A stretch of DNA of 64,000 bases from Eledone cirrhosa (lineage: Eukaryota). The stretch is taken from assembly GCA_964016885.1 (NCBI GenBank), contig OZ024751.1:49042001-49106000 (forward strand). Reading direction: 5' to 3'. The translations under genes and the position numbers were made by a program. Of this stretch, positions 15,111 to 62,370 are shown one piece after another. The number at the start of each line of letters is the position of its first letter. The first letter of the stretch is position 1. A model generated the notes under the pieces. The model was not told where the DNA came from. It searched no databases and saw nothing but the letters and a program-made list of their open reading frames with translations.

Positions 15111-15246
<136 letters not shown>

Positions 15247-16172
15247 TATTTCTTTATTAGCCACAGGGGCACAAAAGAAGGGGACAAATACAAAGGGGGA
15301 AGTTTACATACAATAAAAACGTGTAAAATGTTATCACAGATGGAATTTAAAAGTTAGTCGATTTTCCCCAATAGAGGGAGACAGTTTATATGGGTAACAC
15401 AGACCCCCGAAAAAAATGTGCAACCCTCATCTCCAGGAGTACGAAGAGCTTGTACTCCTTTCCTCTCCTCCTCCTTTTCCTCAACCTACAGGCTGATATA
15501 GAGAGAAGGCCCATTCACTCGGGCCATTCTCGCCACTTTCACCCACCTTTCATAAAACTTGCTGGGGTACAGCACCTCTCTCTCCATCCTGATTCTTCTT
15601 CCAAAGTGGTATTTGAAAAAAAGAATCAGTTGTTGGCCGGAGAGAAAGGTGTCTGACCTCAGCCCTTTCAACCTTGTCCACCATACAACCTCTTTCGCCA
15701 TAGCTATCACACAAAGGAAAACCGCCTCTCCTTCGTTTTTGAAGGAGGGTGGCGGTTTGATCATGACAATGGACTCGGTGGTCAACTGGATTGGTCCCAC
15801 CCGCGACAATAGTCGTTCTACATAGCCCCACAGGTCAGTGACGCCCGGGCAGTGTATGAATGCGTGCGCGACGGTTTCTTCGTCTCGCACGCACCTCGGA
15901 CAGATCTTTTTTGCAGGGTCCCTGCCCGGGCGCCCATGTCTGTAGAGCTTGTCTCGAACTGGTAGAGCTCCTCGGTAGCACTGCCAGGCCAGGGACTTTT
16001 GGAAGTTGTCCATCGGTCCCGGGCGGAAGGTCCTACCGAACAGACTGGCCAGTTCATCTTCCTCCACGCCTAGAGTTTCACCGAGCGCGTCGTCGCACTT
16101 GCTGCGGACCAACCCTCTATAGAATGACGAAGTGGAGTCTCCACTGATCGCCGGGTCCGCCTGCCAGAGGGC
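15247..16172 (-). mobile_element. 5'-truncated L1/Tx1-clade LINE in (GATA)n
   Basis: GC-rich open frame with zf-RVT motif, 3' UTR, AATAAA near the end; (GATA)n on both sides. Confidence 0.85.
15486..16172 (-). CDS. C-terminal fragment of LINE ORF2 (zf-RVT zinc finger)
   Basis: LAWQCYRGALPVRDKL..CPRCVRDEETVAHAFIHCP..LW; the N-terminal part of the tracked ORF is microsatellite read-through. Confidence 0.85.
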   Translation of the reverse strand, partial: ALWQADPAISGDSTSSFYRGLVRSKCDDALGETLGVEEDELASLFGRTFRPGPMDNFQKSLAWQCYRGALPVRDKLYRHGRPGRDPAKKICPRCVRDEETVAHAFIHCPGVTDLWGYVERLLSRVGPIQLTTESIVMIKPPPSFKNEGEAVFLCVIAMAKEVVWWTRLKGLRSDTFLSGQQLILFFKYHFGRRIRMEREVLYPSKFYERWVKVARMARVNGPSLYISL

Positions 16173-16189
16173 TAGATAGATAGATAGAT

Positions 16190-16490
16190 ATGTATGTATG
16201 TATGTATACGTACATACATATATGTATACAGACGTACAGTAGTATGTATATATATACATACATGCACACATATATATATGCACGTATCGGTTTACCGAAC
16301 ATTTATTATAATGCTCGGTTTGTTTGTAAACCGATACGTGCATATATATATGTGTGCATGTATGTATATATATATACATACTACTGTACGTCTGTATACA
16401 TATATGTATGTACGTATACATACATACATACCTACATTTAAGTAATTGCCGTACTAAGAGTGAGAAATGAAATTTCGTTTCATTCTATTC
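16190..16490. mobile_element. Family C partial inverted insertion
   Basis: Arms ~16190-16293 and 16328-16430 plus tail ending gaaatttcgtttcattctattc; homologous to 31347-32787. Confidence 0.85.
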
Positions 16491-16844
16491 CATATATATA
16501 TATATAAAACACATGGATATACAGAAACATATATACCTACATGTATAAACATATATCTATATTATATATGCAAATTAAAATATATATATATTTCTATCAT
16601 ACATTATATATACCGACATACAGATTAAGGTTCAGCCTGATGAGGTTATGATTTTATACCAAAGTTACAACATATTGTAGGGTTCATGTGAATATGATTT
16701 CGAATGGAGGATCAAGTCATTTTTTTCGGATCATATCCTTTTACATGTCCCTTGCTATTCAGAACTACAAACACACTCCACAAATTCACAAACAGACACA
16801 TACCCATACACCTACACCCACACATATATATATATAAGTTTATA

Positions 16845-21082: not shown

Positions 21083-21244
21083 AGATCAAAAGATGGTTAA
21101 AGGAGTTCAATATATTTTATTATGCGCATTTCAAAAACAAACATCATCAAACAATAATATTTGTGTTTTCATCAGATAAAACAGGAGAACATGATATGAA
21201 GGCTAAAAAAAACACTTGTTGATAGTGCAGTTTTAAATCAACAT
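21077..21244 (-). mobile_element. Family D fragment with intact HHR core (21113-21183)
   Basis: tgttttat CTGATGA [stem II] GAAA tgcgca TA ataaaata. Confidence 0.85.
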
Positions 21245-21449: not shown

Positions 21450-21487
21450 AAGAAAAAGGGATGAAATCGAAAATGCAACTGAAGTCT

Positions 21488-21525
<38 letters not shown>

Positions 21526-21540
21526 TATATTTATTTGGTT

Positions 21541-21578
21541 CCTTTACCGGTTTCGCAGTTCTTCTGCTTTTCAAAAGG
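21541..21578 (-). ncRNA. Minimal hammerhead, U3-A8 core variant, in the PLE 3' UTR
   Basis: cctt TTGAAAA gcag-aagaa-ctgc GAAA ccgg TA aagg. Confidence 0.7.
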
Positions 21579-22093
21579 TGAGTTGAGATGGAGGGTCTGT
21601 GGTTTTTCTCACATCTGGTTGGTCTCTAAATGTTACTTGTTTTATATGGAAAAACTGGCTCGAAAACCAGGTTTTTAGAGAAGTAATTTGATTGGTTTGT
21701 CAATAATTATAATAAATTTCGCGCCAGTTCGCGTTACAATAGTTCTTCAAATAAGGTAGGGGGGGGGGGGTTGTCACAGGTTGTTTTTTCATATATGAGT
21801 GTTTGAATTTCTTTTTACTTGAAAAAATGAGGCTCACGAAGGCTTTTTTTTGGTTGGTTATAAATGAAATTTGGCTGTCACGTGAACAAGTTTTCATTAC
21901 ATTTTTGCGCCCTTATTTGGAAAACAATTCTGTAGTCTTTATAGTGAATGTTATGACAATGGAGAGATAGTGGTCAAGGGAAAAGGGATTGGGAGAAATG
22001 TTCTGGTTCAGTGAATATGGCCAGCTGTCAGAGTTCAGGTGTCAGAGTTCAGATTTTCTATTGAGACTGAAGATATGTGTTTATTTGTGTGCT

Positions 22094-22126
<33 letters not shown>

Positions 22127-22613
22127 ATGTGTGTATTGGAAGATGATTCTATTAGTAGAGATGGGGGAGGGAGTTGTGTGTGTGTGTATATGGGTGTTAT
22201 GTGTGTGTGTGAGAGTATGTTAGATAGAGAGAATATATATTTTTTTTGTGTGTGTATATATATATGTGTGTAGGAAAGTGGTTCTATTAGTAGAAATGGG
22301 GAGGGTGTTGTAGGTGTGTGGGTTTTTATGTGTGTGTATGGGTGTTATGTGTGTGGGAGTATGGTTAGCATGTTAAGATGAAGAGAATATATATATATAT
22401 ATATATATTGTGTGTGTATGTGTGTGTGTAGGAAAATGATTCCTTTAGTAGTAATATTTTTGAATGAACATATTTTCCTGACTTTTTCGTGTTTGCTGTT
22501 GTATTGCCAGTGCAAACGTATGTCTAAGGTTTATTTAGTTCGGGTTTTTATTTTCTAAAGTAGGTGTTATGTGTGTGTGTGTATGTCATATTGTGGTGTT
22601 GACATAATGTATA

Positions 22614-23519
22614 TTAAACCTTATTTAATGTTGGTCTATATTTTTGAATAAACATATTTTCCTTATTTATTCGCATTTGTTCTGTTGTATTGTTAGCGCA
22701 AAGGTAAAATGGGAAGACTTGGAATTTGGGTGTCTTATTACTTGCGCAAATGTCTAGATGTGCACTTAGTGGTATTTGTCTCGTGGTTGGATCTCGTAAT
22801 TGTTGGCGATGAACTGTCATTCTGTTTCTGAGTGTGAGTTTAGTTTGTCCTATATAATCTTCATTGCATCCTTTACATTTAATGGCATAAATCAGATTTT
22901 TTGATGAGCAAGTGAAGTGATTTTTTACAGTAAAATTTTGTCCTGATTTAAATGTATACGTGTTGCCTTCAATGAGGTGAGTGCAGGTTCCACAATTAGA
23001 GCGACCACATTTTTTGATACTTGGTTGTGGGTTTGTGGTAGGTAATTTGGCATTGGTGAGTAATGTTTTCAGTGATTTTGGTTGTCTTTTGCTTTTGATT
23101 ATTTTGTGTGTTTCAAGGGCTTTTTTCATTCTTGGGTTTTGTTTTAGTAGTGGGATGTTATTGTGAATAGTGTTGTAAGCTTCCGCATTTCTTGGGTTGT
23201 GTGTTGAGATATATGATAGAATATTGGACGTACCTTGAATTTGTTTCTGTTTCCGTAATTCATCAATGCCTATTGCTTTAGCCCTTTCTATTCCATTATT
23301 TATTAGTAATAGTGGGTACTCTCTCTCAAGTAGAATTTCCTTTAATTCTTGAAGTCTTTTATTTCGCGTTTCATTATTGGAGACAATTGTGCAAATTCTT
23401 CTTGCTAGGTTAAAAGGAATGTTCGTCTTCGTGTGCTTTGGATGGTTGGAGGTGAATAGCAGATATTGTTTGGAATCTGTTGGTTTGTAGTGTATGTCAG
23501 TTTCGATATTTGTGTCTTT
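22614..23519 (-). CDS. PLE polyprotein C-terminus: RT thumb, Cys-rich linker, GIY-YIG endonuclease (5'-truncated, frame open)
   Basis: My translation upstream of the tracked Met: TDIHYKPTDSKQYLLFTSNHPKHTKTNIPFNLARRICTIVS; then CGRSNCGTC linker, NLIYAIKCKGCNEDYIGQT, RMTVHR, final RPTLN. Confidence 0.92.
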   Translation of the reverse strand, partial: KDTNIETDIHYKPTDSKQYLLFTSNHPKHTKTNIPFNLARRICTIVSNNETRNKRLQELKEILLEREYPLLLINNGIERAKAIGIDELRKQKQIQGTSNILSYISTHNPRNAEAYNTIHNNIPLLKQNPRMKKALETHKIIKSKRQPKSLKTLLTNAKLPTTNPQPSIKKCGRSNCGTCTHLIEGNTYTFKSGQNFTVKNHFTCSSKNLIYAIKCKGCNEDYIGQTKLTLRNRMTVHRQQLRDPTTRQIPLSAHLDICASNKTPKFQVFPFYLCANNTTEQMRINKENMFIQKYRPTLNKV

Positions 23520-23651
23520 TTAAATAAGACTTCAGTTGCATTTTCGATTTCATCCCTTTTTCTTTATACTTCCACTCGTGTAGGACACCTCGGTTATTTT
23601 TCATTTTGTAAAAAAAACCCTCACTTTCTAATATATATATATATATATATA

Positions 23652-30340: not shown

Positions 30341-30768
30341 AGGTTAAAAGGGCTGAGGTCAGACACCTTACTCTCCGGCTAACAACTGATTCTTTTTTTC
30401 AAATACCACTTTGGAAGAAGAATCAGGATGGAGAGAGAGGTGCTGTACCCCAGCAAGTTTTATGAAAGGTGGGTGAAAGTGGCGAGAATGGCTCGAGTGA
30501 ATGGGCCTTCTCTCTATATCAGCCTGTAGATTGAGGAAAAGGAGGAGGAGAGGAAAGGAGTACAAGCTCTTCGTACTCCTGGAGATGAGGGTTGCACATT
30601 TTTTTCGGGGGTATGTGTTACCCATATAAACTGTCTCCCTCTATTGGGGAAAATCGACTAACTTTTAAATTCCATCTGTGATAACATTTTACACGTTTTT
30701 ATTGTATGTAAACTTCCCCCTTTGTATTTGTCCCCTTCTTTTGTGCCCCTGTGGCTAATAAAGAAATA
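30341..30768 (+). mobile_element. L1/Tx1 3' fragment, copy 2
   Basis: Near-identical to the reverse complement of 15247-15673; (TCTA)n flanks. Confidence 0.9.
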
Positions 30769-30796
30769 TATCTATCTATCTATCTATCTATCAATC

Positions 30797-31218
30797 AGGT
30801 TAAAAGGGCTGAGGTCAGACACCTTACTCTCCGGCTAACAACTGATTCTTTTTTTCAAATACCACTTTGGAAGAAGAATCAGGATGGAGAGAGAGGTGCT
30901 GTACCCCAGCAAGTTTTATGAAAGGTGGGTGAAAGTGGCGAGAATGGCTCGAGTGAATGGGCCTTCTCTCTATATCAGCCTGTAGGTTGAGGAAAAAGAG
31001 GAAGAGAGGAAAGCGGTACAAACTCTTCTTACTCCTGGAGGGCTGCACATTTTTTCGGGGGTATGTGTTACCCATATGAAATGTCTCCCCCTATTGGGGA
31101 AAATCGATTAATTTTTAAATTGCATTTGTGGTAATATTTTACACGTTTTTATTGTATGTAAACTTCCCCCTTTGTATTTGTCCCCTTCTTGTGTGCCCCT
31201 GTGGCTAATAAAGAAACA
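30797..31218 (+). mobile_element. L1/Tx1 3' fragment, copy 3
   Basis: Same 5' truncation as copy 2, more diverged 3' half. Confidence 0.9.
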
Positions 31219-31346
31219 TATCTATCTATCTATCTATCAATCTTCTTCTCTTATACACACATATATACACACACATATATACATTGCTATATACACACGC
31301 ATATATACTTGTACATATATATGAATGTATATATATATATATATGT

Positions 31347-31856
31347 GCAAGTATGTATGTATACGTACATATATATAAGTATACAGAAGTACAGTAGCAT
31401 GTATATATATATATATATATACACATACAGGCACATATATATATATGTACGTATCAGTTTAGCGAACATTTATTATAATGTTCGCTTTGTTCGTTTGTAA
31501 ACAAACGGACAGCCTGATTTATGGCGTACGGTGTTAAGGCAACCACGTCACCTTTTTGTTCAACACTGACACAGGAACGATGTACTAGTTTCAAGCTTGT
31601 TAGCTATCGTCAGCACCGTATACCCTTCTGCCAGATAGTTGAACGTTCGAAAGTATATACTTTCCTTATGAAAATTAACAGCTGAGCAGCCTAATTTGCA
31701 TATCGAGTGAGTTCAGTCGGCCAGGCGCACCGAAAACGATAAATAGATAGAATAGGGTGGAACGAAATTTCATTTCTCACTCTTAGTACGGCACTTACTT
31801 AAATGCAAGTATGTATGTATACGTACATACATATATGTATACAGAAGTACAGTAGC

Positions 31857-31903
<47 letters not shown>

Positions 31904-32461
31904 TTGAAAAAAAATGAAAACGAAATTTCATTTCTCACTCTTAGTATGGCACTTACTTAAATGTAAGTATGTATGTATACGTACATACATATATGTATGT
32001 ACGTATACATACATACTTATATATATATATATATACACACATACAGGCACACATATATATATGTACGCATCAGTTTAGCGAACATTTATTATAATGTTCG
32101 CTTTGTATACCCTTCTGCCAGATAGTTTCATTCTATTCTATCTATTTATCGTTTTCGGTGCGCCTGGTCGACTGAACTCACTCAATATGCAAATTAGGCT
32201 GCTCAGCCGTTAATTTTCATAAGGAAAGTATATACTTTCGAACGTTCAACTATCTGGCAGAAGGGTATACGGTGCTAACGATAGCTAACAAGCTTGAAAC
32301 TAGTACATCGTTCCTGTGTCAGTGTTGAACAAAAAGGTGACGTGGTTGCCTTAACACCGTACGCCATAAATCAGGCTGTCCGTTTGTTTACAAACGAAAA
32401 AAGCGAACATTTTAATAAATGTTCGCTAAACTGATACGTACATATATATATATGTGTGCCT

Positions 32462-32527
<66 letters not shown>

Positions 32528-32627
32528 TCAAGGTGAAAGACAAATTCTCAACAATATCTTTCACTATTGCATTCTTTTTTTTATGTCCATACCTGCATTG
32601 TTTTGGCCTTATTACACATATTCAAAC

Positions 32628-32678
<51 letters not shown>

Positions 32679-32781
32679 TGCTACTGTACGTCTGTATACA
32701 TATATGTATGTACGTATACATACATACTTGCATTTAAGTAAGTGCCGTACTAAGAGTGAGAAATGAAATTTCGTTTCATTC

Positions 32782-32787
<6 letters not shown>
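31347..32787. mobile_element. Family C: ORF-less ~458-nt head-to-tail HHR unit (retrozyme-like), inverted array
   Basis: gcaagtatgtatgtatacgtac recurs at 31347 and 31805 within one continuous minus arm; plus-strand unit 32128-32787 starts and ends with cattctatt. Confidence 0.8.
31578..31618 (-). ncRNA. Minimal type I hammerhead (family C); mutated mirror at 32270-32310 (+)
   Basis: cggtg CTGACGA t-agc-taacaa-gct-t GAAA ctag TA catcg; palindromic stem III. Confidence 0.82.
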
Positions 32788-32830
<43 letters not shown>

Positions 32831-32933
32831 CATATATATCTTTGAGTGTGTGTGAAAAAGACGACTGACTGCGAGAGAAAGAGGGTTAAAGGGATATATA
32901 TATGATATACATATATGTATATATATATATGTA

Positions 32934-33189: not shown

Positions 33190-33191
<2 letters not shown>

Positions 33192-33995
33192 TGTTATACT
33201 TGGGGAGGGTCATGTTGCCAATAAGAAACACACGCACCAGCAACATTCCAGTTCAAATTATTATAATACATTTATAAATTTAGGAATTTATAAATCTCCG
33301 GTTGGTTGGTTGGTTCCACAAACATATGGTTTTTTTATATATTGTCAAAGTTCTTTCGTCACACATTCTGTGACCTCTTCAGTGACTGGGGATTCTTTTT
33401 TTCGTTTTTTGTGTCTCTCCTTTGTTCTGCCATACGCCATATTGTTTTTGTGTGTGTGTGTGTGCTTAGTTTGCGCATGTGTTACATCCGGTATCTGTGT
33501 GTGTTTATATTCGTTTATTTATTTGTTTATTTACATGTTACTGGTTGGTTGTTTGTTCTATGTGTGTGTGTGTTTTCATTTCGTCCTTAATTGTAAGTTG
33601 TGTTGTTGCTGTTCCACTCATGTTTTCTATTTAATTTTGGTTGTAATTCATTTATGTTTATACATAAATGAATTACAACCAAATAAGATGGCGTAGGACA
33701 GAACAAAGGTGAGGCACAAAAAACAAAGAAAAGAATCCCCAGTCACTGAAGAGGTCACATAATGTGTGACGAAAGAACTTTGACAATATATAAACAACTC
33801 ATAAATTTATAAATTTATAAATTTCCGGAACCAACCAACCAACCGGAAATTTATAAATTTATCATAATAAATTGAAGTGAAAGCTTCTGGTGCGTGTGTT
33901 TCTTATTGGCAACATGACCCTCCCAAAGTATAACAATATCGGTTTCAACACACGTTTTCAGATAAAGAATCTTGCTAAACAAATTCAGAAACGAA

Positions 33996-62067: not shown

Positions 62068-62370
62068 TAATATAAGATCAAAAGATGGTTAAAATAGGTC
62101 CAAGTATTTTATTATGCGCATTTCAAAAACAAATATCATCATGGGATGATATCTGCGTTCTCATCAGATAAAATAGTGAGACATGATATGAAGCTTAAAA
62201 AACACTATCTCCCTATTTTATCTGATGAGAACGCAGATATCATCCCATGATGATATTTGTTTAACCCTCTTTTGATATTATATTATTTATACTCCAGTCC
62301 TACAAACTGTAGAGTGCTACTTATTTGATATTTGCATTGCTTTATTGTGCTACAATAAAACTCACCTCCT

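What the first reader, a model, noticed from the sequence alone, without database searches (positions are those of the whole stretch)
31347..32787. Retrozyme-like ~458-nt head-to-tail RNA unit with one minimal hammerhead and no ORF
Seen: the minus arm 31347-31860 runs through a complete unit and continues into the next (period 458 bp, end-to-start junction near 31740-31770). The plus arm 32128-32787 is one unit bounded by cattctatt at both ends. The unit has one type I HHR (31578-31618), many short palindromes (gcgaacatt..aatgttcgc, cgtttgtaaacaaacg, aaagtatatacttt), an ATGCAAAT octamer and an internal (TA)n. A dispersed copy at 16190-16490 ends at the same point. Known: non-LTR retrozymes in animals are tandem HHR repeats that yield circular RNAs and are thought to be mobilised by PLEs. 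Inference: this was copied from a circular or multimeric RNA by a PLE RT, since it shares the PLE two-arm-plus-tail geometry; it may be an undescribed family.
Basis: partly seen in the sequence, partly recalled or inferred. Interest (0 to 1): 0.9.

Follow-up and report, generated by a model that had tools for sequence, protein, structure and literature searches.

The report
Penelope-inserted hammerhead retrozyme, 458-base unit
This is one copy of a non-coding 458-base repeat with a predicted self-cutting RNA motif, present in about 20,000 or more copies in this animal genome; its mirror-image insertions end like those of Penelope jumping genes, so it likely borrows their enzymes and is probably copied from an RNA circle.

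Summary
The window holds a 458-nt ORF-less unit with a type I hammerhead. Its family has 25,245 hammerhead and 20,016 end-motif matches genome-wide, as dispersed head-to-tail arrays in (TA)n. Of 87 two-armed insertions, 77 carry a ~60-nt tail at one outer end, 10 at neither and none at both. This is the two-start-site signature shown in vitro for a Penelope-like (PLE) enzyme. Both arms and the tail usually share one haplotype, and 5' ends do not pile up at the cut site (5 of 177; about 5 expected). That favours a circular monomer template, but uncut multimeric RNA is not excluded. No ORF-bearing parent was found, and the helper PLE is unidentified. Corrections: the hammerhead has ordinary animal architecture rather than the 'minimal' one. 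This locus has only one intact ribozyme. The plus arm holds a nested 105-nt insert, and cattctatt is a truncation point. No RNA data were available. Verdict: a new member of a known kind (non-LTR retrozyme, non-autonomous PLE). This scan reported similar, probably related, families elsewhere in this genome.

The parts
31328..31346 (.). (TA)n target tract, left flank
31347..31804 (-). Minus arm, one complete 458-nt unit; outer end at 31347 stops at the first fixed end (no tail)
31577..31619 (-). Intact type I hammerhead: helix I 6 bp, helix II 4 bp plus U.U closing pair, helix III 2 bp with palindromic loop; predicted cut between 31583 and 31582
31694..31701 (-). ATGCAAAT octamer, also kept in a distant sister family; possible snRNA-type promoter element (inferred)
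31745..31804 (-). Internal copy of the ~60-nt tail segment between the two inferred reverse-transcription start sites
31805..31901 (-). 3' part of the preceding unit (about positions 399-458) plus (TA)21
31902..32127 (-). Rearranged middle piece: unit 163-185 joined to 315-458 (hammerhead deleted), ending in a variant tail
32128..32787 (+). Plus arm: 5'-truncated at unit position ~42, one unit plus tail; 97% identical to the minus arm over the non-microsatellite core and sharing two rare variants with it
32269..32311 (+). Second hammerhead copy with core G-to-A change at 32277, predicted inactive (effect of that position recalled, not tested)
32525..32630 (+). Nested 105-nt fragment of another young two-armed, tail-bearing repeat family inside the unit's (TA)n
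32732..32787 (+). Tail: extension to the second fixed end, followed by (TA)n 32788-32839
16190..16492 (+). Separate short two-armed copy, no hammerhead, ending at the same tail point

Best explanation
This is an ORF-less, hammerhead-bearing tandem repeat of a high-copy family whose insertions have two head-to-head arms and a one-sided tail, and it is likely pasted into (TA)n by a Penelope-like reverse transcriptase-endonuclease that probably copies a self-cut, re-joined RNA circle. Steps: (1) Arrays are transcribed, possibly from an octamer-containing internal promoter (inferred). (2) Neighbouring hammerheads pair through the palindromic helix III and cut out monomers that are ligated (inferred from known retrozymes). 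(3) The PLE protein cuts both strands of a (TA)n tract and starts reverse transcription at two fixed internal sites ~60 nt apart, one per DNA end (fixed ends shown; enzyme inferred). (4) Each cDNA runs for a variable number of units, and the two are joined head to head, usually with short overlaps (anatomy shown). (5) Arrays later change by local duplication, microsatellite expansion and nested insertion (pattern shown). My odds: non-autonomous PLE-mobilised retrozyme 0.9; circular monomer as the usual template 0.55-0.6; helper family unknown.
For: Copy number: 675 exact, 25,245 relaxed hammerhead and 20,016 tail matches; reversed-pattern controls 0. Geometry: 77 of 87 two-armed insertions have one tail, 10 none, 0 two; 74 of 91 tails are followed by (TA)n. 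PMC11167929 shows that the PLE tail is the stretch between two internal start sites and that both strands are extended. Three other repeat families here have the same two-end layout with tails of about 57-75 nt. One template lineage per insertion: opposite arms differ at 108 of 1547 subfamily-diagnostic cells (7%; control 37%). The tail's hypervariable 13 nt match an internal junction of the same insertion in 63 of 92 cases (control 24%). Rare variants shared within insertions run at 2.4-6.3 per kb against 0.13. In a young subfamily, 5 of 6 loci carry their own haplotype across all pieces, tail included where testable; the sixth has one site that differs between units. No trace of a linear cut end: 5 of 177 5' breakpoints lie within 4 nt of the cut (mean 4.96 per 9-nt window), and variation at the cut site is 0-4%. 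Ribozyme under selection: core varies 1.1% against 2.7% elsewhere (copies not independent); 251 of 284 copies have an intact core; 5 stem pairs change on both sides across 6 sequences including a sister family.
Against: No expression, cleavage or circle data. PMC11167929 found hammerhead cleavage unnecessary for PLE insertion in vitro, with unprocessed RNA as the main substrate. In Li et al. 2026 only 1 of 9 retrozyme dimers cleaved. Arrays are often mosaic: 7 of 18 and 2 of 7 insertions with three or more pieces have rare variants shared by only some units, and units within an insertion differ by about 3.5% against 5% between insertions. Some rare variants are shared by single units across opposite arms (L019, L080, L156), which a pure monomer circle does not give without later conversion. 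9 of 52 opposite-arm pairs are more than 15% discordant. The helix II closing pair is U.U, not the usual G-C. A>G excess on the RNA strand is not significant (70 vs 47, p=0.12). Covariation within the family alone is weak (1 pair). This locus has one intact hammerhead, so it could not release a monomer by itself.
Confidence: 0.6

Rival explanations
1. Same non-autonomous PLE passenger, but the template is an uncut linear multimeric transcript of a donor array; uniform arrays are inherited from donors already homogenised by local duplication, and the hammerhead acts rarely or at another step.
For: Cleavage is dispensable for PLE insertion in vitro. Mosaic arrays and single-unit variants shared across arms. 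Local block duplications are seen in young arrays. A seamless cut site and no breakpoint pile-up fit this too.
Against: Many insertion-specific haplotypes are fixed across all units, both arms and the tail, which needs repeated single-unit bottlenecks. Arms of up to 15 near-identical units occur in the young sister family. The hammerhead core is conserved.
Confidence: 0.27
2. The unit is simply the pLTR of an ORF-bearing PLE and these are its 5'-truncated copies.
For: Identical geometry; Xenopus retrozymes are homologous to PLE pLTRs; only about 200 of more than 10,000 insertions were examined.
Against: Upstream of the tail the sequence is always another unit, in arrays of up to 9 full units per arm. 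In 102 single-orientation insertions, 5 had a sense PLE ORF upstream, each at least 908 nt away and separated by its own end or (TA)n. No match to the dominant PLE's UTR beyond microsatellite.
Confidence: 0.06
3. The template is the hammerhead-cut linear monomer, with the enzyme jumping end to end.
For: Two insertions (L026, L043) of about 17 with ectopic 3' ends stop 3 nt past the cut site. An earlier scan note argues this for a 467-nt family.
Against: No 5' pile-up at the cut site and no scars there; the normal 3' ends lie about 235 and 295 nt downstream of the cut.
Confidence: 0.05
4. A local tandem and inverted duplication, or a DNA-level satellite, with a chance hammerhead.
For: Local duplications do occur inside arrays.
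Against: Tens of thousands of dispersed copies with fixed 3' ends, variable 5' ends and covarying stems.
Confidence: 0.02

Closest known systems
Metazoan non-LTR retrozymes (Cervera and de la Pena 2020, PMC7229834; Li, Clavereau and Pollet 2026, 10.64898/2026.07.22.740005)
   Same: Tandem non-coding units of a few hundred bases, one type I hammerhead each, low GC, monomers to multimers, coexisting with PLEs, which both papers propose as the mobilisers.
   Different: In the parts read, neither paper describes two head-to-head arms with a one-sided tail, fixed start sites or (TA)n targeting. Circles and cleavage are shown there but not here. No pLTR homolog was found here, unlike 21 PLE matches in Xenopus. 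Their supplements were not seen.
EN+ Penelope-like elements (PMC8557442; Poseidon PAc in vitro, PMC11167929)
   Same: Partial tandems, inverted 5'-truncated second arm, tail at one end, hammerhead, AT-rich or microsatellite targets.
   Different: No RT/GIY-YIG ORF; tail ~60 nt rather than 30-40 nt.
Non-autonomous Chlamys elements such as MRC1 (passage in PMC8557442)
   Same: ORF-less PLE passengers with multicopy head-to-tail insertions.
   Different: Those resemble their autonomous partners at the 3' end, and most Chlamys lack hammerheads; no such partner was found here.
Newt satellite 2 (snRNA-type promoter; seen only as a passage and reference title in PMC2220036; its hammerhead in PMC7229834)
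   Same: Tandem hammerhead repeat; this unit keeps an octamer across distant families.
   Different: Promoter activity not tested here; the primary paper was not held.

Membership tests
Non-LTR retrozyme | Head-to-tail units of a few hundred bases | tested here: met
   458 nt here; 415-490 nt in subfamilies; arrays up to 9+2 full units
Non-LTR retrozyme | Type I hammerhead in each unit, canonical animal build (helix I 6 bp, helix II 4 bp, short palindromic helix III) | tested here: met
   251 of 284 cores intact; closing pair of helix II is U.U
Non-LTR retrozyme | No protein-coding ORF; low GC | tested here: met
   the 2-kb bin holding the minus arm is 34.5% GC; PBS/PPT not searched
Non-LTR retrozyme | [quoted passage not shown] 2026), judged for the family | tested here: met
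   35 of 157 hammerhead-bearing loci; this window's own locus does not meet it
Non-LTR retrozyme | Loop 1-loop 2 tertiary contacts | not tested
   loop 2 AANA and internal-loop GGUA are invariant, but no model was tested
Non-LTR retrozyme | Self-cleavage of the transcript | not testable with these tools
   needs an in vitro assay
Non-LTR retrozyme | Accumulates as monomeric circular RNA | not testable with these tools
   no RNA holder listed
Autonomous EN+ PLE | RT plus GIY-YIG ORF between pLTRs | tested here: not met
PLE-type insertion (works like) | Inverted 5'-truncated second arm and tail at one end only | tested here: met
   77 one tail, 10 none, 0 both, of 87
PLE-type insertion (works like) | Insertion into (TA)n or AT-rich DNA | tested here: met
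   74 of 91 tails
Non-autonomous PLE derivative | Sequence homology to the pLTR or 3' end of an autonomous PLE | tested here: inconclusive
   none with the dominant family; other families only partly sampled
PLE min-HHR (PMC4209133) | No helix III/loop 3, long helix II (7-8 bp), short helix I | tested here: not met
   helix III 2 bp plus loop, helix II 4 bp, helix I 6 bp

The most novel reading that the evidence does not exclude
These insertions are a genomic footprint of rolling-circle reverse transcription. One PLE enzyme complex grips a single ribozyme-made RNA circle, starts at two fixed sites ~60 nt apart from the two ends of a DNA break, and runs round it repeatedly. That would make retrozymes true circular-RNA parasites of Penelope elements and would explain PLE partial tandems. 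A whole clade of octamer-bearing units (415-490 nt) does this in one genome.
Probability: 0.5. Interest if true: 0.72.

Novelty: new member of a known kind. Interest (0 to 1): 0.5.

Why it matters
That PLEs mobilise animal retrozymes through circular RNA has been proposed since 2014-2020, and in the papers read here it rests on co-occurrence and pLTR homology. This family adds a mechanistic footprint: the strict one-sided tail matches the two start sites measured in vitro for a PLE protein. It also supplies defined RNA substrates and very young sister arrays with which circle and multimer templates can be told apart. With at least 25,000 hammerheads it is a sizeable and recently active part of this genome.

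Tried and rejected
RNA evidence: no RNA holder listed. Contigs of four runs of unrecorded kind were laid; X1 and X6 hold the family, X4 and X5 laid nothing; this says nothing on expression. Rfam: only microsatellite-driven miRNA hits below gathering score, no hammerhead hit. Whole-window repeat finder was swamped by (TA)n. Helper search: L153 and L014 first looked like hybrids of this unit with the dominant Neptune/Nematis-type PLE. I rejected them as clean evidence because short pieces of that PLE ending at the same point in (TA)n are common on their own (a sample selected with that junction), and L014's junction letters may be the unit's own. L158 and L172 are direct head-to-head joins to two other PLE families, but L158 has tails on both sides and may be two events plus a deletion. 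L126 and L142 join a short non-coding two-armed repeat. None names the helper. A resemblance between the unit's tail end and the dominant PLE's first end was seen by eye only and not scored. RNA-editing scars: not significant. Cut-RNA ends: no 5' excess. Mosaic arrays as proof of a multimeric template: weakened, because young arrays show local 4-unit duplications. A profile search for PLE thumb domains was not run, so divergent PLE families were only met by chance. Literature searches found no description of this family or of two-armed, tailed retrozymes; subscription papers are not covered.

Full report
What is in the window. The minus strand carries a complete 458-nt unit (31804 to 31347), preceded by part of the previous unit and (TA)21. 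A rearranged piece follows (31902-32127: unit 163-185 joined to 315-458 and a variant tail). Then comes a plus arm (32128-32787) that starts at unit position ~42 and ends ~56 nt into the next unit before (TA)n. The plus arm is lengthened by (TA)n and a nested 105-nt piece of another young repeat with 1,264 first-look candidates. The two arms are 97% identical over the core, agree at 41 of 41 subfamily-diagnostic sites and share two rare variants. There is no real ORF. The unit folds into a chain of hairpins (z -6.48, 0 of 100 shuffles as stable), partly because of its palindromes and (TA)n.

The ribozyme. A full type I core lies at 31619-31577, with a 6-bp helix I, a 4-bp helix II closed by U.U, and a 2-bp palindromic helix III. 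By PMC4209133 (parts 1-2 of 4 read) this is the ordinary animal build that works as a dimer, not the helix-III-less 'min-HHR'. The plus-arm copy has a core change. Across copies the core varies 1.1% (24 of 2209 cells) against 2.7% (1435 of 53823; copies not independent), and 251 of 284 copies are intact. Within the family only one pair changes on both sides. A young 466-nt sister family is collinear with the unit (score 159, best shuffle 48). Adding it gives 5 pairs changed on both sides among 6 hand-picked sequences. The octamer region is also kept in that sister family. Rfam gave no hammerhead hit.

The family. The 3.0-Gb genome holds 675 exact matches to this hammerhead, 25,245 to a relaxed version and 20,016 to a 25-nt tail motif; reversed controls gave 0. 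I examined about 200 insertion clusters, chosen by best match, by exact hammerhead or by tail motif, mostly from the start of contig C1. Periods run from 415 to about 490 nt. Of 87 two-armed insertions away from locus edges, 77 have the ~60-nt tail at one outer end, 10 at neither and 0 at both. A further 103 show one orientation only and 4 are complex; arms made only of the microsatellite part are invisible to this count. 74 of 91 tails are followed by (TA)n.

Why PLE. PMC8557442 (12 passages read) describes PLE insertions as partial tandems with an inverted truncated copy and a tail at one end, and mentions ORF-less multicopy passengers. PMC11167929 (parts 1-2 of 4) shows a PLE protein cutting and extending both strands and starting at two internal RNA sites whose spacing is the tail. 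This genome has a very abundant young PLE with a 775-aa RT plus GIY-YIG frame and a CX4CX2C linker, typical of Neptune/Nematis. One truncated copy lies in the window at 22614-23519. It has the same two-end layout with a 66-nt tail; another PLE family has about 57 nt, and this unit about 60-62. The unit is not the pLTR of the dominant family. In 102 of 203 clusters with one orientation and enough flank, 6 PLE protein probes found a sense ORF upstream in 5, never joined as a pLTR. Head-to-head joins with three PLE families were found, but none is clean, so the helper is open.

What was the template? For one RNA unit per insertion: opposite arms disagree at 7% of diagnostic cells against 37% for unrelated pairs (5.8% against 15.3% within the window-like subfamilies). 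The tail matches an internal junction of its own insertion in 63 of 92 cases against 24%. In a young subfamily 89% identical to the window unit, 5 of 6 loci carry a distinct haplotype through all pieces. The sister family has arms of up to 15 near-identical units and variants fixed across both arms (L266, L294). Against cut linear monomers: 5 of 177 5' breakpoints lie near the cut, as expected by chance. Against a pure circle: older arrays are mosaic (9 of 25 with three or more pieces), some single-unit variants are shared across arms, 9 of 52 arm pairs are discordant, L298's arms differ in haplotype, and cleavage was dispensable in vitro. Local block duplication, visible as period-4 repeats confined to one arm, can explain same-arm mosaics, but it can also homogenise donors for a linear route. 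A>G excess is not significant. I put the circle at 0.55-0.6.

Relation to what is known. PMC7229834 (sections 14 and 17 plus passages) defines non-LTR retrozymes, shows circles in coral, mussel and axolotl, and names PLEs as likely mobilisers. The 2026 preprint (parts 1-3 of 5, through the Discussion; supplements not seen) links them to pLTRs by homology. This family meets every sequence-level feature; cleavage and circles could not be tested. Seven literature searches found no account of this family or of the two-arm-plus-tail pattern in retrozymes. Earlier notes of this scan describe 310-, 420/422-, 465/467-, 535-, 557-, 591- and 615-nt families in this genome with the same geometry. A 422-nt subfamily shares this unit's tail and may be what two of those notes describe, but the notes give no sequence and a look-up by sequence found nothing. 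Those notes call the host a cephalopod; I did not test that.

Verdict. Real, correctly recognised in kind, and a new member of a known class. Its value lies in the strict insertion footprint, which ties retrozymes to PLE biochemistry and makes the circle step testable. Interest 0.5.

Noticed in passing
window 21450-23630 (-): Truncated two-armed copy of a very young, very abundant PLE (34,566 first-look candidates, many 775-aa intact frames). My scan found no hammerhead in its 3' UTR, which is unusual for a C-terminal-endonuclease PLE.
   Followed up: partly
L229:609-1150; G000:C1:117901700-117911100: Very young 466-nt sister retrozyme family with arms of 15+4 near-identical full units and a ~75-nt tail; best material for the circle test.
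   Followed up: partly
window 33190-33800: Two-armed end of another PLE family with its own hammerheads at 33387 (-) and 33741 (+), right beside the finding.
   Followed up: partly
window 21115-21181, 62107-62173, 7691: Further hammerhead families (long helix II; another core variant); the 62.1-kb one lies near a fragment resembling a PLE frame.
   Followed up: no
window 15219-16190 and 30341-31240: 3' fragments of an L1/Tx1-like LINE (zf-RVT hit) with (CTAT)n tails, tandemly duplicated at 30.3-31.2 kb and inverted relative to 15.2 kb.
   Followed up: partly
L096:1220-1420, L213, L216; joins in L126, L142: Abundant ~200-270-nt two-armed, tail-bearing repeat with no hammerhead or ORF in the parts seen; twice joined directly head to head with this unit.
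   Followed up: partly
L101:1000-1340: A tRNA-like SINE (type judged by eye) abuts a truncated unit head to head with no (TA)n between them, possibly captured as a second arm.
   Followed up: no
L241-L259: Many solo 165- or 230-nt end fragments of the dominant PLE, truncated at the same point; possibly a short non-autonomous derivative (sample selected with that junction).
   Followed up: partly
L026:947, L043:2020: Two insertions whose arm ends 3 nt past the hammerhead cut site instead of at a normal end.
   Followed up: partly
run X6 (organism D): Contigs of another organism hold sequence 80-99% like the unit, so the family is not confined to this species.
   Followed up: no
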